A stretch of 64,000 bases of DNA from a virus. Below the pieces are notes generated by a model. It was not told the origin of the DNA. It ran no database searches and saw only the letters and a list, made by a program, of their open reading frames with translations. Each line of letters starts with the position of its first letter. Position 1 is the first letter of the stretch. Positions 3,293 through 48,034 of the stretch are shown here, piece by piece. The position numbers and the translations under genes are program-made. The stretch lies in IMG/VR virus record IMGVR_UViG_3300021599_000885; one strand, given 5' to 3'.

Positions 3293-3300
3293 TATTTATA
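3293..3300 (-). promoter_or_regulatory. T4-type late promoter TATAAATA
   Basis: tatttata on the + strand, about 30 nt upstream of the 3262 start. Confidence 0.75.
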
Positions 3301-3332
3301 AAAAAAGGAGACCTTTACTTCTTGGTCTCCTT
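3298..3332 (-). terminator. Rho-independent terminator
   Basis: AAGGAGACC/GGTCTCCTT stem followed by a T-run on the minus strand. Confidence 0.7.
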
Positions 3333-3479
3333 GCGTAAAACTATTTTTAAAAAGTGAGTAATAAGGTCGAGCAACCCATTCTCCTCAAATCTTTTTGTTT
3401 TTGCTAACCACTCGGAAGCAGTTAGTAGTAGACCTAAAGCAATGGTTACTCCCCAGTTAGTTAGAAAGCAGGTAATCAT
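3315..3479 (-). CDS. Small membrane protein (54 aa)
   Basis: Manual translation MITCFLTNWGVTIALGLLLTASEWLAKTKRFEENGLLDLITHFLKIVLRKETKK; ATGA overlap with the upstream ORF. Confidence 0.7.
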   Translation of the reverse strand: MITCFLTNWGVTIALGLLLTASEWLAKTKRFEENGLLDLITHFLKIVLRKETKK

Positions 3480-3655
3480 CCTTCAGCTTGTGGCTTGAAG
3501 AGAAGTTCCTTAACAGTAAGAAGAACCATGTCATCAATACTGTTGTCGGTGGATTTTACATACTTTTCAAGGAGTTCAATAACAAGATTCTTAACTGCTG
3601 GATGTGAAGCAAGTTGAAGCACGATTGGTTTTACAACCGCTACGACTGCACCCAT
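3476..3655 (-). CDS. Small hypothetical protein (59 aa)
   Basis: Manual translation MGAVVAVVKPIVLQLASHPAVKNLVIELLEKYVKSTDNSIDD...; GGAGG RBS and TAAATA upstream. Confidence 0.75.
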   Translation of the reverse strand: MGAVVAVVKPIVLQLASHPAVKNLVIELLEKYVKSTDNSIDDMVLLTVKELLFKPQAEG

Positions 3656-3693
3656 GGTGTCCTCCGTGTGAGAGTATCCTGGGATATTTAGTA

Positions 3694-5130
3694 TCAGACT
3701 CCTTTAAGATTGGATTTTGCTTTCAATTCTTTCATCATTGCATCATACTTTTTTTGAGCCTCAGGAGAAAGTTCAAGGTTCTCAGTTTTTTTTGGTTCCC
3801 CCCTTTCACCCCTACCATATCTACTATCATAACCCTCAGAGTTCATTTTAGCACTTGAAGAAGTCATAATCTTCATGACTTCTTTTCCATCAGTTGGAGC
3901 ATCGAGCATAATAGGATTCTTAATTCCCATTGCTCTAAACTTATTCTTAAGAAGTTCTCTGTAAGTTCTCTTCTCTTTACAATCACATGGATTTTCTCCA
4001 CAACATTCACACGCTTTACTATTCTCTTCTTTTACATTTTCAGGAAGACCCTTATGCTTGGTTTTAGCATACTTCTTTGCTTCCTTTTTAGTCATACCCT
4101 TTGCTGCAGCCTCAACCTCAGGCGATGCCTCACCTTTCTTCATCTCACCCTTTTTGCGTGCATAAACCATACCCATAAAGCGTTGCTGTGCTTTGCTCTT
4201 TGCCTTTTCAATAAGGAATGGTCCTTCCATCTCATTACCGGCACTAATAACTCCACCATTATTTTGTGGATTGGAACCATCATCTGGGAAGACTGTAATT
4301 CTCTTGGAATTATCAACCTTAACACCTACATCAATAGCGGCAGGAACTCTATTCTTACCATCGGTTGAAGTGGTTCCCTCAAACCAAAGATAATCTTCTT
4401 TGTTCATTGCTCTGCGGATTGCGTCACGACGATTATAGATGTAAGAATCCGTATTATCTTTCTTCCCATCATCATTTACATCACCATCTCTCTTGGAAGG
4501 ATGTACTGGTTTGTCTAAACCACTCTTGTTATTTGGAATATCTTTTTTCTTTTTCTTACGCTCACCTTCATATGGTTCACCATACTCAGTCATCTCAACT
4601 TTAAGACCCCTACCTCTCAAAGCAGTGATCTTTTCACGAGTAGCATATCTAACATAAGATTTACCGCTCTTAGGATCAGTAACTCTTATCTTATACTTTC
4701 TATCAGTTTCTTCAGCAAGTTGATTCTCATACTCAAGATTAATAACTTCCTCTTTCTGCACTCCCTCAACAAATACTCTGTACAGAGCACCAGCAACTGA
4801 GTCTACTGCCCAGTCTACACTATCCACAAAATGTGACTCAGTAACACCAACCTTCTTTCCAAATAGTTTATCCTTAACTGCTTTCCTCTCAGCAGGGTTC
4901 AATGAACTATTAGACATGTACTGAGAGAAGGCTTGTTTAAGATCGATGTCCTCTCTTCTGGCACGATAACGGATGTCATATACTGCCTGACGAATTCTTT
5001 TCTCAGAGTTTTCGGCAGTTGATCCGCCACCTTCTTTCTTCGCAGAAGGAGCAGCTTTCTTAGCACCATTAGCAGGAGCAGCAGGAGCGTGCTTTCTTGC
5101 TGGAAGTTCTTCAGAGATATTGGTTTTCAT
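3694..5130 (-). CDS. Modular Lys-rich hypothetical protein (putative polyprotein / internal head protein)
   Basis: 478 aa of short dissimilar modules, including KAKSKAQQRFMGMV, an EF-hand-like DGDVNDDGKKDNTD and CECCGENPCDC; late promoter at about 5161-5170. Confidence 0.75.
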   Translation of the reverse strand: MKTNISEELPARKHAPAAPANGAKKAAPSAKKEGGGSTAENSEKRIRQAVYDIRYRARREDIDLKQAFSQYMSNSSLNPAERKAVKDKLFGKKVGVTESHFVDSVDWAVDSVAGALYRVFVEGVQKEEVINLEYENQLAEETDRKYKIRVTDPKSGKSYVRYATREKITALRGRGLKVEMTEYGEPYEGERKKKKKDIPNNKSGLDKPVHPSKRDGDVNDDGKKDNTDSYIYNRRDAIRRAMNKEDYLWFEGTTSTDGKNRVPAAIDVGVKVDNSKRITVFPDDGSNPQNNGGVISAGNEMEGPFLIEKAKSKAQQRFMGMVYARKKGEMKKGEASPEVEAAAKGMTKKEAKKYAKTKHKGLPENVKEENSKACECCGENPCDCKEKRTYRELLKNKFRAMGIKNPIMLDAPTDGKEVMKIMTSSSAKMNSEGYDSRYGRGERGEPKKTENLELSPEAQKKYDAMMKELKAKSNLKGV

Positions 5131-5147
5131 TGGAAGATGTTACAGAC

Positions 5148-6392
5148 TTACTTTTTCCTATATTTATTTATGAATTGTAGACCCCAACTAGAACCGGGGA
5201 CCATTGATTCAACATATCTGCGATGGGAATCAGTTCCAACTAGACGTTGATCGGCAGGAACTCCACCTTGTTCAGTTCCATTTACAACCGCCTCATTCAC
5301 ATCTTTGATCCAGGACTTGAACATAATATTGTCTTCGGTAACACAAATAAGATAGTTAGTTCCACGACGAATAATACGTCCAACAAGTCCAGTGTTTAGA
5401 TTTTCTACAAGTTCACCAATCTTGAAAATCGTCTTAGCAACATAGTTCTCACGTAAAGTCTGATAATCAAACTTTGGAGCCATCTCCCAGATTCCCCACT
5501 CTTCATTAATACCCATAGAGCGGCGAACTGTATTGAAAATTTCTTTTGCCTTTTCTGGTTTCATATCTCCAGGCATACCAGAGCGAAATGTCTTAAAGTC
5601 ATTTTCTGCGGCAGCAAGTCTCATTCTTGAGGCAGAAAGACCTTCCACACCTTCGGAGTCTGGATCTCTATCTCCAGCGGAAACAACTTCTAGTTTATCG
5701 AACTGATATAGTTTACCATTATAACTTCCAGAAAGTTTTTCAAATTCTTTAACTCTATCAGCACCACCAACTATTCTTACATTAGCATAACCGTCGTTAT
5801 GTGCTTTCTTAAGAACATCGAAGATGGTTTTAGTTGCCGCATCGTTAGCAATATTCTTTTTATGTTGTGGGAACATATCCATCATCACTTTTACTTTAGT
5901 ATCAGCATCAAGTGGATTCTTCTTTGGATCTTGACTGCGTGATGGAACAATAAGATAGTCCCCACCATCACTCTTAGCAGAACCAGCAGCAGTATCCATT
6001 AACTGCAAGTGACCAAGATGAGGTGGATTGAAACGACCAAAAGCAATGGTCAAAGTTCCTTTTGTTTTTTTAACAGGTTCAAACTTTGGACCATCATCCT
6101 TCTGCTCCCCACCCTTTTCTGCTTTTGGTTGGGGAGCTTCCTTCTGCTGCTGTAGTGCAGGATCTACAAAGTTTGGATTGGAATATTTCTTTTCAGTTTC
6201 AGTCTGTTCTGGATCTTTTCCGCCAACTTTTTGGCGCTTATTATAAAAGACTAGTTTTCCTTTTTCAGTCTTTGCTACAAACTCACCACTGTTGCGATCA
6301 TACCAACCACCGTGACCATCACCCTTAAGACCCATTCTTGCTGCTTGTTGTGCAGCAGATTCGGATAAGAACTGGAAGAAATTTTTCATCAC
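5148..6392 (-). CDS. Cytidylyltransferase-like (HxGH nucleotidyltransferase) protein
   Basis: FGRFNPPHLGH (HxGH), KNPL, VGGADRV and SASRMR motifs. Confidence 0.88.
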   Translation of the reverse strand: MMKNFFQFLSESAAQQAARMGLKGDGHGGWYDRNSGEFVAKTEKGKLVFYNKRQKVGGKDPEQTETEKKYSNPNFVDPALQQQKEAPQPKAEKGGEQKDDGPKFEPVKKTKGTLTIAFGRFNPPHLGHLQLMDTAAGSAKSDGGDYLIVPSRSQDPKKNPLDADTKVKVMMDMFPQHKKNIANDAATKTIFDVLKKAHNDGYANVRIVGGADRVKEFEKLSGSYNGKLYQFDKLEVVSAGDRDPDSEGVEGLSASRMRLAAAENDFKTFRSGMPGDMKPEKAKEIFNTVRRSMGINEEWGIWEMAPKFDYQTLRENYVAKTIFKIGELVENLNTGLVGRIIRRGTNYLICVTEDNIMFKSWIKDVNEAVVNGTEQGGVPADQRLVGTDSHRRYVESMVPGSSWGLQFINKYRKK

Positions 6393-6601
6393 TTTTTATT
6401 TTGCAACTCCTTGGTTACCGCCACTTCGTTAGTAACGATATACCTTAAAATTTGTTTTCGTATCAATATATATTTATTCTTTTGTTTATTATTGGTAGCA
6501 GAGTCAATTTCACGCTGAAGTGTTGTATACACATATCCAGCAAAATTCTTAAAGTCTTTACTTCTAAAGTCGCTAATCAATTGTTTTAGATACTCAGACA
6601 T
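6389..6601 (-). CDS. Hypothetical protein (about 70 aa)
   Basis: Likely start MSEYLKQL at 6601, overlapping the upstream stop; the longer start in the ORF track overlaps the next gene. Confidence 0.6.
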   Translation of the reverse strand: MSEYLKQLISDFRSKDFKNFAGYVYTTLQREIDSATNNKQKNKYILIRKQILRYIVTNEVAVTKELQNKK

Positions 6602-7523
6602 ACTGCTTGATAGACCTACCACCCTTTGCGCTGATGACCATTCTAGCACCTTTAACACCATAGTTGTCTCTATCTCCCTTATAAATCGCCATAAAAACTG
6701 GTTCATAATTTCCAGTGATAGCATCACCATTATTATGAGTTTGTGATGAAGCAATCAACTTATACTTTCCAGTGGTTACCATTTGTATATTTACAGTTCC
6801 CTGAAGGAGAAGGTCAACATTCTGTATACTCGAAGGACCGCCATATCCATTACCATATACAGACATCATTTTCAATCTTGTATCTTTAATCTGTCTAGCA
6901 ACAGTTGTGGCTGGTGGAATACCATTAGGATACATTTCTCGTATTGTCGCAACAAATGCCTGAGTTTCTGGGTGAGAAGCAAGAACTGGTTCACCTCTTA
7001 CAGTAATACCTCCCCACTGCTGAATAGCAGTTGCCGATAATCCATCCTTATGTGATACAAAACCAACCATTCTACCCTGGTCATCTCTAAAATGAAAGTC
7101 TGACTTCGGTGTTCCTGGTGTGCTTTCTACAGCAACAACTCTATAATAGTTTTTGCCTATCTTTAAAGTAACAATATCACTACCATTTTTCTGCTTTATT
7201 TCCTCAAGTTTTCTTCTGATAAGTCTAACCTGCTCATCCTCTGCAGCAGTAGTATTTTGAGTTCTTCCAGAAAAAGTAGAGTCTTTATATAACTGGGTTA
7301 GTCTAATTAAACTGTTCGTTACTGTTGGTAAGACAATACTTTGACCCTGCTGATATTGTGCTAGATCATCTACACTGTTTAAAGTCTTAGCAACTCTTGG
7401 ATCTATCTTTACTTTTAAACCATTTCCCTCAACAAGAGTAAAATCACCTCTACTAGCAATTCTAGTCTTAAAAAGAGAAAAGTTGTTTCTTTTTTTTAGT
7501 TCTGCAGGTGATAATGAAGCCAT
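6594..7523 (-). CDS. Hypothetical protein, possible PD-(D/E)xK-like nuclease fold
   Basis: EDE...TPKSDFHF...VSHKDG...QQWGG pattern resembles a restriction-type catalytic core; TAAATA upstream. Confidence 0.55.
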   Translation of the reverse strand: MASLSPAELKKRNNFSLFKTRIASRGDFTLVEGNGLKVKIDPRVAKTLNSVDDLAQYQQGQSIVLPTVTNSLIRLTQLYKDSTFSGRTQNTTAAEDEQVRLIRRKLEEIKQKNGSDIVTLKIGKNYYRVVAVESTPGTPKSDFHFRDDQGRMVGFVSHKDGLSATAIQQWGGITVRGEPVLASHPETQAFVATIREMYPNGIPPATTVARQIKDTRLKMMSVYGNGYGGPSSIQNVDLLLQGTVNIQMVTTGKYKLIASSQTHNNGDAITGNYEPVFMAIYKGDRDNYGVKGARMVISAKGGRSIKQYV

Positions 7524-7543
7524 TACCTTTTTGAACTATTTAG

Positions 7544-7625
7544 TGCTCGTGAGAGGACTTGAACCTCCACAGATTACTCTACTGGAACCTAAACCCAGCG
7601 CGTCTACCAATTCCGCCACACGAGC
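7544..7625 (-). tRNA. tRNA-Leu(TAG)
   Basis: GCTCGTG acceptor stem, D-arm GGCGGAATTGGTAGACGC, anticodon loop TT-TAG-GT, long variable arm, GTTCAAGTC T-loop; no encoded CCA. Confidence 0.95.
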
Positions 7626-7627
7626 AA

Positions 7628-7701
7628 TGGAGAATAGCGGACTCGAACCGCTGACATCCTGCTTGCAAAGCAGGCGCTCTACCAGACTGAGCTAATTCCC
7701 C
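7628..7701 (-). tRNA. tRNA-Ala(TGC)
   Basis: GGGGAATTAGCTCAGTCTGGTAGAGCG...TT-TGC-AA...GGTTCGAGTCC; G3:U70 alanine identity pair. Confidence 0.96.
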
Positions 7702-7729
7702 AAGGGACCCTTTCGGGTCGTTTGCTGGT

Positions 7730-25534: not shown

Positions 25535-26125
25535 TCAACGACCGAAATCTGGTCCTCCTGGATTAACACCAAATGGTAATTCTTTATCAAACTCTCTGCT
25601 TCTTTTTTTTGCTGATGGAGGTGCTGGTTTTGCTGGTGCTGGTTTCTTTATCATTGATGAACTGGGGGCATTGTCTCTTGCACGATCCCTAGCGTAATCA
25701 AATGTACCCTTCACATTTTGTACTTTTTGTTTGAGAGTATCTACTCCCTTCTCAACAGTTCCAACTACTGTTCCAGCAGCTCTGGCCACATTATCTGCGG
25801 TTTGCCCAATCCAACCCTCAACAATACTCTGTCTCCACTCTTCACTCATATTTGCCATAATAGCAAGAGCTGACTTGTTGGTATCAGCATAACCTTCAGC
25901 AACCAGATATTCTAAGAGGTAGTCAAAAAGATCAACCTCTTCTTTCATCTCATTTTCTTTCTCTTCTTTCTCTTTCTTTTCTTTCTTTTTCCCCTTCATT
26001 TTAGGAGTTTCTTCCTTATCACCACACTCCTCATCATCTTCCATCTCATCTTCCATTTCTTTGCCGTATCCTTCATAGATACTAGCATATGCTTCTTTAA
26101 TAAGGCGAAGTTCTTTTGAATCCAT
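25535..26125 (-). CDS. Hypothetical protein with leader domain (putative internal head protein)
   Basis: LIKEAYASIYE N-terminus; DLFDYLLEYLVAEGYADTNKSALAIMANMSEEWRQSIVE domain; ATAAATA upstream. Confidence 0.75.
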   Translation of the reverse strand: MDSKELRLIKEAYASIYEGYGKEMEDEMEDDEECGDKEETPKMKGKKKEKKEKEEKENEMKEEVDLFDYLLEYLVAEGYADTNKSALAIMANMSEEWRQSIVEGWIGQTADNVARAAGTVVGTVEKGVDTLKQKVQNVKGTFDYARDRARDNAPSSSMIKKPAPAKPAPPSAKKRSREFDKELPFGVNPGGPDFGR

Positions 26126-26152: not shown

Positions 26153-26941
26153 TTAAGCAATTTTTTTGGTATCAACTCTAGGAATACCATATGTTTTAGC
26201 GTGTATTTCCTTACCAAGATTTTCAGCTTCTGCTGTTCTACCCTGCTTAATTAACTCACGATATTTTTGAACTTCAGGATCCGCTGGTTTTGCCGCTGGT
26301 CTCGCTACAGGTGGAACAACTCTTTTCCTTTCGACTGGTTTTGCTGCTACAGGTTCCACTGTTCTTGATTTTTCTAGTGGTGTTTCAGGCATTGGATCAA
26401 TAGGATCAAATGTTGCCTTTGCCTTTGGTTTGGGCATTGGATCTATTGGATCAAATTTTACTCTTGTTTTTAAATAATTTTGGAATGGAGTTTCTTTAGA
26501 TTGACGTGCTTTTAGTTCACCACTCACTCTTTCCCACTCTTTAGGATTTGCTGCCTTTGTTAATACATCTGCAGTTTTTGTAACAATTCCAGTTAAAAGT
26601 GCTCCACCAAGAACAGACTTAGGAGATACCTTTAAAGATGGTTTTGGACTGACCGTTGGTGAAACCTTTGGAGGAGTTCCAATTTGGAATGCTGCTGGTT
26701 TTGGAGCAGGTTGAGTAGATGCTCCTCTAAAAATATTAGTTAAATTTGTAGGTCCTGATGGTGGTTTGATAGGCATTTTATCAATACCAGTCATCATTCT
26801 ATACATTTTAGAAGCTATTTGCATTCCCTTCATCCAATTCTCATTGATGGTTGACATCATGAAAAGAGATTCTTCATTTGTATTTCCTTCTTCTACAAGT
26901 CTATTAAACACAAAATCATATATGTCTTCTTTAATTTCCAT
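26153..26941 (-). CDS. Hypothetical Pro/Lys-rich protein with a related leader domain
   Basis: DIYDFVFNRLVEEGNTNEESLFMMSTINE; internal FDPIDPMP duplication; ATAAATA upstream. Confidence 0.7.
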   Translation of the reverse strand: MEIKEDIYDFVFNRLVEEGNTNEESLFMMSTINENWMKGMQIASKMYRMMTGIDKMPIKPPSGPTNLTNIFRGASTQPAPKPAAFQIGTPPKVSPTVSPKPSLKVSPKSVLGGALLTGIVTKTADVLTKAANPKEWERVSGELKARQSKETPFQNYLKTRVKFDPIDPMPKPKAKATFDPIDPMPETPLEKSRTVEPVAAKPVERKRVVPPVARPAAKPADPEVQKYRELIKQGRTAEAENLGKEIHAKTYGIPRVDTKKIA

Positions 26942-36269: not shown

Positions 36270-36920
36270 TCAGAGATTTGATAAGAATTCGTTGAAAAGA
36301 TTTAACTTATACTCTTCAAGCATTCTTTGATCGACAAGAGTATTAATACGTCTTTTTGTATTCTCTGCGAGTTGTTCACGAAGGATACCACCTTCCCAAA
36401 CCCACTCTTTACCTTCCATAATTCCATTGACGAAAGCATCAGGAGCGGAAGGATCGGCAACGATATCAGCAGCAGTTGCTAACTGGAAATCTTCACCAAC
36501 AATCTTGTGACCTTCGTTGGTCATTCTAAGTGAACCAACACCACGAGAAGAAACGCCAAGCATAACGCCAGACTCAAGAAGTGACTTAGCGATTTTGCCC
36601 ATTGGGGTTTCAAGAATCTGTGCCTTACCTACAAAGTTATTACCTTCTTGGTTGAGGCAAGTGATCTTGTGTGAAACACGATCAAGATTAACGGTAGGAC
36701 CATCTGGGTGACCAAGTTCGCCAAGAGCACGACCCTTACAGACGAAATTTTCGTTATAACGGGTTACTTCTTTAGAAAGAGTATCGATGGGGTACATTCT
36801 CCCATTGCGATTCTTGATCTCACCTTGAAGAAATACACCTTCGATGTATAACCTCTTGTTAGGACCTTTACCTTCGGTGATAACTTTTACGTTAGTTACT
36901 TCTTCTGTGATTAGTTTCAT
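36270..36920 (-). CDS. gp21: Prohead protease gp21
   Basis: NRNGRMY, GELGHP, GVSSRGVGS, DIVADPSAPDA. Confidence 0.96.
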   Translation of the reverse strand: MKLITEEVTNVKVITEGKGPNKRLYIEGVFLQGEIKNRNGRMYPIDTLSKEVTRYNENFVCKGRALGELGHPDGPTVNLDRVSHKITCLNQEGNNFVGKAQILETPMGKIAKSLLESGVMLGVSSRGVGSLRMTNEGHKIVGEDFQLATAADIVADPSAPDAFVNGIMEGKEWVWEGGILREQLAENTKRRINTLVDQRMLEEYKLNLFNEFLSNL

Positions 36921-44433: not shown

Positions 44434-46017
44434 TTAATCTTCTACATAAATGAACGAAGCACTAGCAGCAGTAATATTAGATGTTGATGAAATTACTGCG
44501 GTTATAAAACTATTTGGTGGAACATGAAGTCCAATTTCAGATAAATCAACATCAATGGTTGAGTTATCTGATACATGAAAAGCAGCAATAGGAGGTATTG
44601 ATTGTGCTGCTAATGTAAATAATCCAGTGCTATCTTGAGTTGCATAAAGTGATGCATTAAAATCACTTTGAGTAGTCCATCTCAAATAATTTGTAAGAAC
44701 TGGGTTCCAATATATGCGAATAACTGCTGGGTCTCCTGTTGTATTTACTGATGCAGTAAGTCTTCTAGGAAGTAAATCTCTTGTATTAATCTTACCTTGA
44801 TAAACAAGTTTATTTTTAAGAGAAATGAGATGATATAAAGAACCAGGAGTGTTCATACTATCATTTCTGGTTGTAGTCACTGAATATGGAAGTTTTGTTC
44901 TTTCAACAATACCTTCAATCGCACCAAGGAAAGAAGAACCTCTACAAGTAACAACACCTACACCACCACCTAGATTTGCAGCAACATATCCAATCTTCAT
45001 TGATGGATTGTCTAGGTGTGGTAGTTGGTTTCTATTTGAATAATGTTCGTGATGGAAGAAAATCATATCCCCATTTAGAGGATTTTCAATCGCATATCTA
45101 ATCTCACCAGAACCTAACCAACGGAAGTTGATTTGATATACATTTAACTTAGATGGGTCTAGAGTAATACCAGAATATCCAGTTCCATCAAGTTTATCTA
45201 AATTAAAATCTTCTTGGAAAGTCCAGTTTTCTGTTTGTACTACCCCTGCCTGTCTTAATAATGCATTAAAAGATATTGTTGCGGTGCTTGTAATATCAAA
45301 AGTTCCAGTTTGAGGTCCAAGAGATGTTGCTAAAAATCTTAATCTTGATTGGTCATATTCAACCAAATACAAAGCATTAAAGAGTGCTTGTGCTCTTAAT
45401 CCTTGTGCGAGTTGAGAAAGATTTCCTGCAAGTGTTCCTGAATTTACTGTTACCGCAGTAAAAGAAGTTCCATTCAGAGTGACTGTTACATTTCCATTAT
45501 CAAGTGTGGTGAAGTCATAACCCTGAATTCTTGCTTTACCACCATTTGCACGAAGAACACCAAACTTCCCATTGGTGTGTGCATATCCAATTTGAATTGC
45601 TTGTTCTTGATTGAATAGTCCTGCTCTTTGTGTAAATCCTACTGGGTTATTTGAGAACGAACCAGTAAATCTGCAAACAACACCTTGTCCTGGACGGTAT
45701 CTAATAAAGTTCGTACTTCTGATTACACCATAAGAATTTGCAGAAGAACCAGCACCAACTATAAATGTAGAGTTTGCATGAGTAGCAATTCCTGTTGCAC
45801 TGAATGTATATGTCTCAAACTCTCTTGGGTCTAATCCATAGACAGCATCTGCCTGAATTTTTGGTGTAATTGGGACTGCAATATTCTCACCAAAAGCAGA
45901 TTTAGAACAAGCACCTTCATTTAGAATATTTCCATACTCATCAGCACGGAGATAAACTTCGTGAAGTGTTCTTTCTTGATTTAAGTAGTCTTGTGTAGAC
46001 TTATTCCACTGAGCCAT
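44434..46017 (-). CDS. Probable virion structural protein
   Basis: 527 aa, beta-rich, in the late head/packaging cluster; RYRPGQG and FRWLGSG motifs. Confidence 0.6.
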   Translation of the reverse strand: MAQWNKSTQDYLNQERTLHEVYLRADEYGNILNEGACSKSAFGENIAVPITPKIQADAVYGLDPREFETYTFSATGIATHANSTFIVGAGSSANSYGVIRSTNFIRYRPGQGVVCRFTGSFSNNPVGFTQRAGLFNQEQAIQIGYAHTNGKFGVLRANGGKARIQGYDFTTLDNGNVTVTLNGTSFTAVTVNSGTLAGNLSQLAQGLRAQALFNALYLVEYDQSRLRFLATSLGPQTGTFDITSTATISFNALLRQAGVVQTENWTFQEDFNLDKLDGTGYSGITLDPSKLNVYQINFRWLGSGEIRYAIENPLNGDMIFFHHEHYSNRNQLPHLDNPSMKIGYVAANLGGGVGVVTCRGSSFLGAIEGIVERTKLPYSVTTTRNDSMNTPGSLYHLISLKNKLVYQGKINTRDLLPRRLTASVNTTGDPAVIRIYWNPVLTNYLRWTTQSDFNASLYATQDSTGLFTLAAQSIPPIAAFHVSDNSTIDVDLSEIGLHVPPNSFITAVISSTSNITAASASFIYVED

Positions 46018-46331
46018 TATTCACTCCACGATAATCTTTCTGGTTGATACCTCTGAGAACTCTTAATTTTTAAAGAACTTTGAGATTGTGATGGATAGAT
46101 ATTGTGAACAATCGCACCAGGATATTCTCCTTGAAGTTGTTCAGCGAGAGCGTTCTTATCCATCATAGAACCTTCAACCTCAAGACGATACATCTTTCCT
46201 TCCCAAACTACATCAGCAAAGAAAGACTCACTTGCGGTCTCTGGTTCTTGTGAACCACCTACATTTAAAGTTCCATTAAAATCACCATTGATGGTGATGC
46301 TTTCTTGTAAAAACTGTTGAAAACTTTTCAT
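46017..46331 (-). CDS. Hypothetical protein with capsid-targeting-like N-terminus
   Basis: MKSFQQFLQE start. Confidence 0.7.
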   Translation of the reverse strand: MKSFQQFLQESITINGDFNGTLNVGGSQEPETASESFFADVVWEGKMYRLEVEGSMMDKNALAEQLQGEYPGAIVHNIYPSQSQSSLKIKSSQRYQPERLSWSE

Positions 46332-48034
46332 TAGCATTTCCAGCGACGACGGGCTTTACAAATTGCTTTATCTGGGTCTTTTGAGCAATCAATGTTATGC
46401 ATGTCTTGCTGACCCTTAGAGCGAGCGCAGAAGGACTTTCTACGCTTTGATCTTCCTGGTCCAGGATCTTTCTCAGTTACGGCAGTCTTTAGTTTAGAAC
46501 CAGGATTCTCACGACGATAAGCATTAACTGCTTTCTGACTCATACCATCAGTTTTGTCTGACTTATTTACTTTCTGCCAATCTTCTTCCAGTTCTTCTCT
46601 CCAGTTAGAGTATCCTTCTTTTACACAGTTGGGAACCATTTTCCCACCCTTCTTTTTCATACCAACTTGCTTGTAACCATCCCAGCAAGGATCTTCTTTT
46701 GCTTCGGCAAAAGCATCTGTAGAAACACCATCAGCATAAGATGATTGACTTGGAGTTGCTCTCTTAAATCTAGGTTTTCTGCTTAGATTAGAGGGGAGTT
46801 GATTGTCTCCTACTTTTTTACCTAATGGATATTTTGGATCATATGCACTTTGCTCACTAACAAGAGGTTCTGGTTTAATCAGATCAATTGTTTCAATTTC
46901 AAGTGCCTTGAAGTCATCTCTCCAGTTGGAAAACTCATATCCCTCTTTTTTAGTTCCCCAGTTATCAGCACCAACTTTACGGCACTTAACTAATGCACCA
47001 GATGCATATGCACTTGGCCAAACGTCATATCTTGCCTTTACTTTCTTATAGCAAGCATCTTTTTTCTCATCAATCAATTGACCCTTAACTTCTGTCTCTT
47101 GTCTGAGTAACTTTAATGCTTCACGAGTAGCATCGTTGTGTCGTTGCATACCATATGAAGCATGACCAATACCAGTTCCAGGCTGAATTTTTTCACCTTT
47201 CTTAGCAGCTTCTACACCAGATTTCGAAGCCTGTTGTGCTCTACGAATTGCAGCAAGTCCAAGAGCACCAGCACCAAGAGCAAGACCACCAGCAACTAAA
47301 GGAGCAAGTTCATCAAGTTGCTCACCTTTTGGTTCAAAGTGTTGTGCTAGTTTTAGTTTACTATCACTAGGAAGTTCTAAAACATCTTCAGGTCTACCAC
47401 CAACTCCACCAGCAAGTTTTTTATTATCTCTAAACATTCTCCTAAGTGCATCAGCTCCACTTTCTCCGGGAAGAAGTTTAACTTGTTCTCTCACTATCTT
47501 TGCTTTACCCTTTCTATTTGGGTTTGGATCTTCTTTACGCTTCTTCTTTGCTCTCTTCTCTCTTTCATCCTTACTCATTGCTGCACGATCATCAGCATCG
47601 CGGCAGAATGGTTTGGTTTTTTGTCCTGGTTGTTTGGCACAAGGTTTTCCATCATACTTACCACCTGCCTGAACCCATCCACCACCAGAAAACCAGTCAC
47701 GGAGTGAGTAGTCTTTATCTTTAGCGGACTTGCCATCACGCTTACCTTCTTCCATATAAGAAGCAGCAGCATCTGTGTTGTGCTCCGTATCAGTCAACTT
47801 TGCTTGAACCCAAGCAGGAAGGTTATCTGCGTCAGTTTTCTTTGCAAGAACTCTTGCTACTTTTTGTAGATTATCAATAGACTTTTTGACCTGAGTCTTA
47901 GCCATTGAGACTTCATGGTCTTTTTCTTTTGCTTCATTCATTTTCTTTTTACGTCCCTGACAATGAGCACGCTGAGAAAACCCTTTTGGGTTGTCGCAAT
48001 CAATCGATTTTTTATATTTCTCAGACCAACCCAT
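46331..48034 (-). CDS. Modular basic, Cys-rich protein (putative polyprotein)
   Basis: 567 aa of short modules with paired Cys separated by hydrophobic-x-E; late promoter at about 48057-48065. Confidence 0.8.
   Translation of the reverse strand: MGWSEKYKKSIDCDNPKGFSQRAHCQGRKKKMNEAKEKDHEVSMAKTQVKKSIDNLQKVARVLAKKTDADNLPAWVQAKLTDTEHNTDAAASYMEEGKRDGKSAKDKDYSLRDWFSGGGWVQAGGKYDGKPCAKQPGQKTKPFCRDADDRAAMSKDEREKRAKKKRKEDPNPNRKGKAKIVREQVKLLPGESGADALRRMFRDNKKLAGGVGGRPEDVLELPSDSKLKLAQHFEPKGEQLDELAPLVAGGLALGAGALGLAAIRRAQQASKSGVEAAKKGEKIQPGTGIGHASYGMQRHNDATREALKLLRQETEVKGQLIDEKKDACYKKVKARYDVWPSAYASGALVKCRKVGADNWGTKKEGYEFSNWRDDFKALEIETIDLIKPEPLVSEQSAYDPKYPLGKKVGDNQLPSNLSRKPRFKRATPSQSSYADGVSTDAFAEAKEDPCWDGYKQVGMKKKGGKMVPNCVKEGYSNWREELEEDWQKVNKSDKTDGMSQKAVNAYRRENPGSKLKTAVTEKDPGPGRSKRRKSFCARSKGQQDMHNIDCSKDPDKAICKARRRWKC

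What the first reader, a model, noticed from the sequence alone, without database searches (positions are those of the whole stretch)
3694..5130. Second putative polyprotein sharing a linker motif with the first
Seen in sequence: the 478-aa late ORF is also a mosaic of modules bounded by NISE, GVTE, QLAE, LWFE, FLIE and NVKE. Modules include a helical RIRQAVYDIRYRAR unit, a beta unit KYKIRVTDPKSGKSYVRYA, an EF-hand/dockerin-like loop DGDVNDDGKKDNTD, a basic KAKSKAQQRFMGMV...KHKGLP unit and CECCGENPCDC. The linker NEMEGPFLIE resembles FEPKGEQLDE and TEVKGQLIDE in the 46331-48034 protein (E-x-[EK]-G-x-x-hydrophobic-x-E), although the two genes are about 42 kb apart and otherwise unrelated. Inference: a recurring extended protease-recognition linker used to chain cargo modules.
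Basis: partly seen in the sequence, partly recalled or inferred. Interest (0 to 1): 0.72.

Follow-up and report, generated by a model that had tools for sequence, protein, structure and literature searches.

The report
Cyanophage mosaic head-cargo protein, protease-type joints
A late gene of a T4-like ocean cyanophage encodes a chain of small shuffled protein modules whose joints carry the cutting signal of the phage's head-maturation protease, so it is probably packed into the capsid and cut into pieces, though no cut has been measured.

Summary

The polyprotein reading is only partly supported:
- Hydrophobic-x-Glu is not enriched in the ORF (9 seen, 8.7 expected).
- Only two of the six proposed borders are invariant in 120 homologues: I5-x-E7 and L306-x-E308.

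The joint before the DUF3008 module is real:
- Where anything lies upstream of DUF3008, 129 of 131 distinct contexts have [L/I/V]-x-E right before K-A-x-S-K.
- Bacterial and free-standing copies start directly at MPAKSK.
- A matching site follows the domain in 95 of 129 embedded contexts and 0 of 26 terminal ones.
- A second module (GWSxKYK) behaves the same way.

Supporting context:
- The gene has a T4-type late-promoter core in 80 of 80 related loci.
- It follows a virion-detected nucleotidyltransferase that carries a T4-like capsid-targeting leader.
- In phage S-SCSM1 a free DUF3008 gene in the same slot is annotated as a virion protein.

Best reading (0.55): capsid cargo cut by gp21.

This scan reached the same reading before, on the other gene of this genome and on at least eight other cyanophage genomes.

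The parts
3694..5130 (-). 478-aa late ORF: mosaic, basic (pI 9.43) candidate head-cargo precursor
5161..5171 (-). T4-type late-promoter core ATAAATAAATA, 41 and 37 nt before the start codon
   Evidence: the same doubled core stands before gp22. ATAAATA lies 21-60 nt upstream in 80 of 80 related loci.
5110..5130 (-). 7-residue leader M-K-T-N-I-S-E ending in I-x-E (candidate gp21 site). It lacks the aromatic residues of the T4 capsid-targeting sequence.
   Evidence: I5 and E7 in 119 of 119 ungapped rows. M-x-x-x-I-x-E-x-L-P in 80 of 80 loci, with position 6 variable.
4765..5007 (-). conserved domain A (aa 42-122)
   Evidence: near-invariant block; phrog_3326, function unknown.
4561..4698 (-). 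conserved domain B (aa 145-190)
4387..4488 (-). single dockerin/EF-hand-like Ca-loop plus helix (aa 215-248)
   Evidence: weak dockerin hits, E 0.046-0.2. Dockerin_1 in 3 of 81 homologues; L015 shows the loop duplicated in tandem; shared with S-SCSM1 gp92, E 3e-6.
4207..4233 (-). joint E-M-E-G-P-F-L-I-E (aa 300-308); candidate gp21 cut after E308
   Evidence: G-x-F-L-x-E as at the T4 gp23 maturation site GSFLTE65|A.
4036..4206 (-). DUF3008 module (aa 309-365), net charge +11
   Evidence: PF11450, E 1.8e-7, 31.7 bits against a cutoff of 24..
4027..4035 (-). V-K-E (aa 366-368), a candidate second site at the C-side of DUF3008
   Evidence: position 366 M44/V42, position 368 E90/K19; 95 of 129 embedded against 0 of 26 terminal.
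3904..4011 (-). Cys cluster (aa 374-384) and conserved basic helix YRxLLKNKxRAMG (aa 385-409)
5148..6392 (-). Upstream HxGH nucleotidyltransferase. The probable start is the ATG at 6389, giving the leader MKNFFQFLSE (6360-6389).
   Evidence: Virion detection of the family.
36270..36920 (-). gp21 prohead protease, the proposed cutting enzyme
   Evidence: 42% identity to T4 gp21..
46331..48034 (-). The 567-aa 'first' mosaic protein. Joints at aa 234-242 (47309-47335) and 315-323 (47066-47092).
46017..46337 (-). Small ORF with a T4-like leader MKSFQQFLQE. The probable start is the ATG at 46331.

Best explanation
The ORF is a late-expressed precursor of capsid-internal (head-cargo) proteins of a T4-like cyanomyovirus. 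It is assembled from a shared pool of small, mostly basic modules.

Inferred mechanism:
- The protein enters the prohead together with the neighbouring leader-bearing nucleotidyltransferase.
- The prohead protease gp21 (36270-36920) trims it after I5-S-E7 and cuts it after L306-I-E308, and perhaps after V366-K-E368.
- This would release a fragment of about 33.7 kDa (aa 8-308) and a basic DUF3008-containing fragment (aa 309-478, 19.1 kDa; or aa 309-368, 6.7 kDa, pI 10.1).
- The new N-terminus of that fragment (KAKSKAQQ...) would match the natural start of free DUF3008 proteins ((M)PAKSKAQQ...).
- By analogy with T4 internal proteins, the pieces would travel with the DNA into the host.

Shown: the mosaic architecture, the grammar and conservation of the joints, the late-promoter motif and the synteny.

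Inferred: packaging, cleavage and what the pieces do.
For: - Phage and protease. The window is a T4-like cyanomyovirus with gp21, gp22 and gp23. Its own presumed gp21 targets keep L/I-x-E: gp23 F-L-x-E54 in 55 of 55, gp22 G-E-x-L-S-E131 in 69 of 69, and the gp21 C-terminal I-L-R-E182 in 62 of 63.
- Late promoter. The core lies at -41/-37, as before gp22, and is kept in 80 of 80 loci.
- N-side of DUF3008. 129 of 131 distinct upstream contexts have [LIV]-x-E|K. The base rate at a fixed position is 1.9%.
- Free DUF3008. Bacterial chromosomal copies are free proteins whose sequence runs from MPAKSK (e.g. L183 66 aa, L187 65 aa); in some loci my start-codon rule gave longer frames. 33 of 120 short metagenomic proteins begin MP[AS]x-SK.
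- C-side of DUF3008. [LIVM]-x-E occurs within 9 aa in 95 of 129 embedded contexts and 0 of 26 terminal ones (Fisher 3e-13; base rate 13%).
- Replicate module. The N-terminal form is MGWSEKYK. All 32 of 32 internal contexts read V-x-E|G/K-WS. Two mid-module controls gave 0 of 15 and 0 of 19.
- Homology blocks. Non-collinear BLAST block starts are 4-fold enriched at -12 to +3 of the joint (20.6% against 4.8%).
- Protein-level selection. Joint codons vary synonymously (P1 GAG 17, GAA 16; mean nucleotide identity 0.66).
- Virion link. The upstream enzyme carries MK-x-F-x-x-F-[LI]-x-E in 64 of 80 loci; T4 IPII and IPIII start MKTYQEFIAE. Its family was found in virions of S-SM1 (PMC3037559, passages) and S-SCSM1 (PMC9602691, passages).
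- S-SCSM1 slot. The GenBank record labels as 'virion protein' the enzyme, a 520-aa mosaic protein sharing the Ca-loop module, and a 69-aa free DUF3008.
Against: - No proteomic or N-terminal data exist for this ORF or its orthologues. Table S8 of PMC3037559 and the S-SCSM1 peptide tables are supplements I could not open.
- The 7-residue leader lacks the aromatic residues at positions 4 and 7 that the T4 work found important for targeting.
- Hydrophobic-x-Glu is not enriched in the ORF as a whole.
- Four of the six proposed borders are weakly conserved or not conserved.
- The counted contexts are distinct strings but not phylogenetically independent, and many come from one family.
- Linkers are Glu-rich, which raises the chance rate.
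- The 'virion protein' labels of SSCSM1_92 and _93 are record annotation. The paper's text names only ORF91, ORF213 and ORF214.
- A free DUF3008 without a leader in virions shows that the module may need neither a leader nor cutting to get in.
- The Atlas's own model is of low confidence (pLDDT 0.50), so the accessibility of the joints is unknown.
Confidence: 0.55

Rival explanations
1. The protein is an uncut multidomain virion or internal protein. The acidic Glu-ending stretches are flexible linkers or domain caps, and at most the N-terminal leader is removed.
For: - There is no overall enrichment of hydrophobic-x-Glu.
- Several proposed borders are not conserved.
- Tandem Ca-loop modules join without a site.
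- The conserved E-x-E-G part goes beyond the minimal T4 gp21 motif.
- No cut has been measured.
Against: - A cap or linker does not explain why P3 is restricted to L/I/V and P1 to Glu with a free P2 in 129 of 131 contexts.
- It does not explain why the site vanishes when the domain is terminal (0 of 26).
- It does not explain why bacterial DUF3008 lacks the site.
- It does not explain why predicted mature ends equal the natural ends of free modules in two different modules.
Confidence: 0.25
2. The protein is a late non-virion protein. The joint is a short linear motif bound by some other partner (for example a scaffold or chaperone docking peptide), or is cut by a different protease.
For: - The gene lies among replication genes, between gp61 and gp41.
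- The leader is not a full T4-type targeting sequence.
- The extended consensus [S/A]-[H/Y]-[F/Y]-E-P-E-G-E-x-V-x-E looks like a self-contained peptide motif.
Against: - T4 ipII and ipIII also lie outside the structural cluster.
- The positional neighbours in S-SCSM1 are labelled virion proteins.
- The core motif is enriched in gp21 and gp22.
- The motif ends in the gp21 rule.
Confidence: 0.12
3. The joint is a DNA-level recombination box that lets modules be swapped, as conserved boxes do in T-even tail-fibre genes (recalled, not checked here). It has no role in the protein.
For: Homology blocks start at the joint, and many module combinations exist.
Against: - 33 distinct joint DNAs share only 66% mean identity over 27 nt.
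- Conserved residues use synonymous codons freely (P1 GAG 17, GAA 16).
- The three joints in this window differ in sequence.
Confidence: 0.03

Closest known systems
T4 internal proteins IPI, IPII and IPIII (and Alt): capsid-targeting sequence plus gp21 processing
   Same: - Late, basic proteins encoded outside the structural cluster.
- A phage with a gp21 homologue.
- Glu-ending L/I-x-E sites.
- The neighbouring enzyme and a 106-aa ORF carry a leader with the T4 pattern at positions 4, 7, 8 and 10.
   Different: - T4 internal proteins are single proteins that lose one 10-residue leader.
- Here several unrelated modules are chained, with sites between them.
- This ORF's own leader has 7 residues and no aromatic residues.
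- No packaging or cutting has been shown.
T4 prohead core proteins gp22, gp67 and gp68, cut by gp21 into several peptides
   Same: One chain with several L/I-x-E sites. T4 gp67 contains FLIE and T4 gp23 is cut at GSFLTE65|A, like GPFLIE here.
   Different: Those are scaffold proteins whose fragments mostly leave the head (passages). The modules here are conserved folded-looking units that also exist as free genes.
Processed head and ejection proteins of giant phages phiKZ, 201phi2-1 and SPN3US (S/A-x-E sites)
   Same: Many head proteins are cut after Glu at a three-residue motif by a gp21-related protease, with redundant sites in propeptides (passages).
   Different: The P3 preference differs (S/A/G). 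These are propeptide removals rather than chains of shuffled mini-modules.
Polyvalent proteins of phages and conjugative elements (Iyer et al. 2017, PMC5512222)
   Same: Multidomain, combinatorially shuffled proteins thought to be packaged and delivered with the DNA, some of them processed (passages).
   Different: - Those carry enzymatic effector domains and their own peptidase domains.
- The paper's main text holds neither 'DUF3008' nor 'cyanophage' (0 occurrences each).
- Here the modules are 30-80-residue non-enzymatic units, and the presumed protease acts in trans.

Membership tests
T4-type capsid-targeted, gp21-processed internal proteins | The phage encodes a gp21-type prohead protease. 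| tested here: met
   Window 36270-36920 is 42% identical to T4 gp21.
T4-type capsid-targeted, gp21-processed internal proteins | An N-terminal ~10-residue targeting sequence (aromatic residues at 4 and 7, L/I at 8, E at 10). | tested here: not met
   The leader is MKTNISE: 7 residues, no aromatic residues, I-x-E only. The neighbour 5148-6392 does meet this feature.
T4-type capsid-targeted, gp21-processed internal proteins | Cleavage after L/I-x-E by gp21. | not testable with these tools
   The sequence conforms at E7 and E308, both invariant. There are no protein data.
T4-type capsid-targeted, gp21-processed internal proteins | Presence in the purified virion. | not testable with these tools
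   Only indirect evidence: the S-SCSM1 genes in the same slot are labelled virion proteins. Supplements were closed.
T4-type capsid-targeted, gp21-processed internal proteins | Late expression. | tested here: inconclusive
   A late-promoter core is present in 80 of 80 loci. No transcript data were examined.
Pfam DUF3008 (PF11450) | Score above the gathering cutoff. | tested here: met
   31.7 bits against a cutoff of 24, aa 310-365. 55 of 81 homologues match.
Dockerin type I (PF00404) | Two tandem Ca-binding loop-helix segments that score as Dockerin_1. | tested here: not met
   The window protein has one loop-helix and no Pfam hit at E<=0.1. The PDB profile hits are E 0.046-0.2. 3 of 81 homologues match; L015 shows the loop duplicated in tandem.
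Viral polyprotein (one ORF, several mature products) | Demonstrated release of separate mature products. | not testable with these tools
   Inferred only from site grammar and from free-standing forms of the modules.

The most novel reading that the evidence does not exclude
T4-like cyanophages, among the most abundant viruses in the ocean, load their capsids with combinatorial 'cassette' polyproteins. Small basic modules are drawn from a common pool that includes DUF3008, a domain also present in bacteria as a free-standing protein. They are strung together through an extended head-protease site and cut inside the prohead, giving each module exactly the N-terminus of its free-standing form. 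This would be an evolvable, mix-and-match cargo for injection, of a kind not described in the literature I searched.
Probability: 0.45. Interest if true: 0.8.

Novelty: new variant of a known kind. Interest (0 to 1): 0.6.

Why it matters
Packaged internal proteins are a phage's first weapons inside the host cell. In T4 they counter restriction.

If cyanomyoviruses chain shuffled mini-proteins behind head-protease sites, several things follow:
- Thousands of 'hypothetical' genes in ocean viromes gain a common explanation. More than 3,600 relatives of this ORF and more than 7,900 relatives of the 567-aa gene were found at E<=0.001.
- The repeated and so far puzzling detection of an NMNAT-like enzyme in cyanophage virions gets a mechanism, namely a T4-type targeting leader.
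- DUF3008 gets a first physical context.

I found no paper making these links:
- 'DUF3008': 0 papers.
- 'capsid targeting sequence' together with 'cyanophage': only the T4 review.
- A search on internal head protein, prohead core and cyanophage listed nothing relevant among the 12 titles shown.

Tried and rejected
- Enrichment of hydrophobic-x-Glu in the ORF: none.
- DNA recombination box: disfavoured by synonymous variation.
- The site as an integral part of DUF3008: disfavoured by bacterial and terminal forms.
- Fold evidence: the profile search of PDB sequences gave only weak dockerin hits. The Atlas gave no named relatives and a low-confidence model.
- tblastn of the 69-aa DUF3008 stretch against isolate phages gave only 4 records. 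That is too few to say whether the joint is confined to T4-like phages.
- Sigma-70 promoter and terminator scan of 3300-6700: at chance level.
- Tandem repeats: two trivial rows.
- In one search my pattern missed the target ORF in 12 of 80 loci. Searches recovered all 80.
- The 80 loci of the 106-aa family were found partly through a pattern made from its own leader, and they are 76-86% identical. The 79 of 80 leader count is therefore biased.
- My ORF set is a crude longest-ORF call, not a gene prediction.
- I did not use the search of protein representatives, the look-up of sequencing runs or read laying.

Full report
**Setting**

The window belongs to a T4-like cyanomyovirus. Megablast of its first 20 kb matches Synechococcus and Prochlorococcus myoviruses. 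The 98-kb contig carries gp61, gp41, gp43, gp23, gp22, gp21, gp20, gp18 and gp17 homologues.

The 478-aa ORF (3694-5130, minus strand) lies between the primase and helicase genes, 17 nt downstream of an HxGH nucleotidyltransferase gene (5148-6392). The same gene pair is present in S-SRM01 and in P-SSM2 (PSSM2_194/195). Opposite-strand ORFs are short and unsupported.

**The observation**

Pfam finds DUF3008 at aa 310-365. PHROGs finds a large unknown family (phrog_3326) over the N-terminal part, and small families over DUF3008.

Hydrophobic-x-Glu is not over-represented in the ORF (9 observed, 8.7 expected). The six 'borders' therefore cannot be accepted on count alone.

In 120 homologues of 53-100% identity:
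- I5-x-E7 and [L/I/V]306-x-E308 are invariant.
- E98 is invariant, but its P3 is hydrophobic in only 93 of 120.
- QLAE and NVKE are partly kept.
- LWFE is not kept.

**The joint is real and recurrent**

In the 567-aa family the stretch before the KKDACY module is conserved. Across both families a fuller consensus emerges: [S/A]-[H/Y]-[F/Y]-E-P-E-G-E-x-[V/I/L]-x-E. It is followed by many different modules:
- DUF3008
- KKDACY
- a DPCW module
- a Gly/Ala-rich hydrophobic segment
- RTRYAKETG
- GQGEFRSLGR
- and others

Starts of non-collinear BLAST blocks fall within -12 to +3 of the joint four times more often than random positions do. Joint codons vary synonymously, so selection acts on the peptide and not on the DNA.

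**Sites are present only where a module is embedded**

This is the strongest result.

*DUF3008, N-side.*
- 33 of 120 short metagenomic proteins begin MP[AS]x-SKAQQ.
- In Brucella, Agrobacterium, Aminobacter and other bacterial chromosomes DUF3008 is a free protein whose sequence runs from MPAKSK. L183 is 66 aa and L187 is 65 aa. In some loci my start-codon rule gave longer frames.
- Wherever any sequence precedes the domain, 129 of 131 distinct contexts read [L71/I53/V5]-x-E immediately before K-A-x-S-K, with a free P2.
- The two exceptions contain an internal MPAV or KPSK start.

*DUF3008, C-side.* [LIVM]-x-E follows within 9 residues in 95 of 129 contexts when more protein follows. It follows in 0 of 26 when the domain ends the protein, where the tail reads EHVKK.

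*A second module repeats the pattern.* It starts MGWSEKYK at the N-terminus of the 567-aa protein. In 32 of 32 internal contexts it is preceded by V-x-E|G or V-x-E|K. Two mid-module control patterns gave 0 of 15 and 0 of 19.

A cut after the Glu would give each embedded module the same N-terminus as its free form. These contexts are distinct strings but are not independent lineages.

**Fit to the protease**

The T4 rule is L/I-x-E (review PMC9026906, passages). The 65-residue gp23 propeptide (PMC5694885, passages) ends in GSFLTE|A in the T4 sequence. This has the same G-x-F-L-x-E form as GPFLIE here.

In cyanophage relatives the equivalent sites are conserved:
- gp23: F-L-x-E
- gp22: G-E-x-L-S-E
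- gp21 C-terminus: [E/D]-G-G-I-L-R-E

The core [EK]-G-x-x-hydrophobic-x-E is enriched in gp21 plus gp22 (3 observed, 0.26 expected) and not in the other 122 ORFs.

**Is it in the virion?**

The evidence is indirect.
- A T4-type late-promoter core precedes the ORF, as it does gp22 and other late genes. It is kept in 80 of 80 related loci.
- The upstream enzyme starts MKNFFQFLSE. The pattern MK-x-F-x-x-F-[LI]-x-E holds in 64 of 80 loci; 14 loci have a short, different upstream ORF and 2 are near misses.
- T4 IPII and IPIII start MKTYQEFIAE. The conserved positions 4, 7, 8 and 10 are the ones the T4 mutational work singled out.
- This enzyme family was detected in virions of S-SM1 and S-SCSM1. 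The S-SCSM1 authors noted its repeated detection in cyanophage virions without an explanation.
- In S-SCSM1 three genes in the same slot are labelled virion proteins in the record:
  - the enzyme (MKSFLQFLKE)
  - a 520-aa mosaic protein that shares only the Ca-loop module with this ORF
  - a 69-aa free DUF3008 (MPAVSK...)
- In S-8S29 the homologue of the 567-aa gene contains DUF3008 flanked by DIYE|KAK and RVEE|G.
- A 99-aa metagenomic protein joins a T4-like leader (MRYAEFITE), DUF3008 and the WSxKYK module.

So the two window genes, although not similar to each other, draw on one module pool.

**Limits**

- There are no protein-level data for this ORF.
- Its own leader is not a full targeting sequence.
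- Supplements were closed.

**Relation to earlier work in this scan**

This scan had already read the 567-aa gene of this genome the same way, and at least eight other cyanophage genomes too. Those are unchecked AI notes and I do not count them as evidence. My 'embedded versus terminal' tests, the bacterial comparison and the S-SCSM1 slot are my own checks.

**Verdict**

- This is a new variant of the T4 internal-protein theme.
- It is plausible but unproven as a cleaved polyprotein.

Noticed in passing
window 5148-6392 (-), leader 6360-6389: The HxGH nucleotidyltransferase starts MKNFFQFLSE, like the T4 capsid-targeting sequence. The leader is conserved in 64 of 80 related loci and in S-SRM01, P-SSM2 and S-SCSM1. 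This would explain why NMNAT-like enzymes keep turning up in cyanophage virion proteomes.
   Followed up: yes
window 46017-46337 (-): This small ORF (phrog_1742) probably starts at the ATG at 46331, overlapping the stop of the 567-aa gene. That start gives the leader MKSFQQFLQE. 79 of 80 related loci keep F4, F7, L/I8 and E10, but the scan was biased by a pattern made from the leader itself.
   Followed up: partly
window 25535-26125 (-) and 26153-26941 (-): Two further late-promoter-preceded ORFs of low complexity, one acidic/basic and one Pro/Lys-rich, with early hydrophobic-x-Glu sites (LIKE at 8-11; IKE at 3-5). They may be more head-cargo candidates.
   Followed up: no
window 36270-36920 (-): gp21 itself keeps an invariant MKLITEE start and a C-terminal [E/D]-G-G-I-L-R-E site in 62 of 63 relatives. 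The latter aligns with EITE in T4 gp21. Both fit self-processing at both ends.
   Followed up: partly
window 7543-7702 (-): Two adjacent tRNA genes, tRNA-Leu (tag) and tRNA-Ala (tgc), lie between the 309-aa ORF and the small genes before mazG.
   Followed up: no
L044 (aa ~409-440 of its ORF) and window 46331-48034 aa 243-265: A Gly/Ala-rich hydrophobic segment (APLVAGG...LGAGA), preceded by the joint, occurs in both gene families. It looks like a membrane-inserting or glycine-zipper module inside presumed capsid cargo.
   Followed up: no
L040, L041, L049-L051, L053, L056, L059, L060, L062-L064, L074, L084: In 14 of 80 loci the upstream gene is only 188-194 aa and starts MKTFSALKNN, without the Glu-ending leader. 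The enzyme part appears to be lost or split off there.
   Followed up: no
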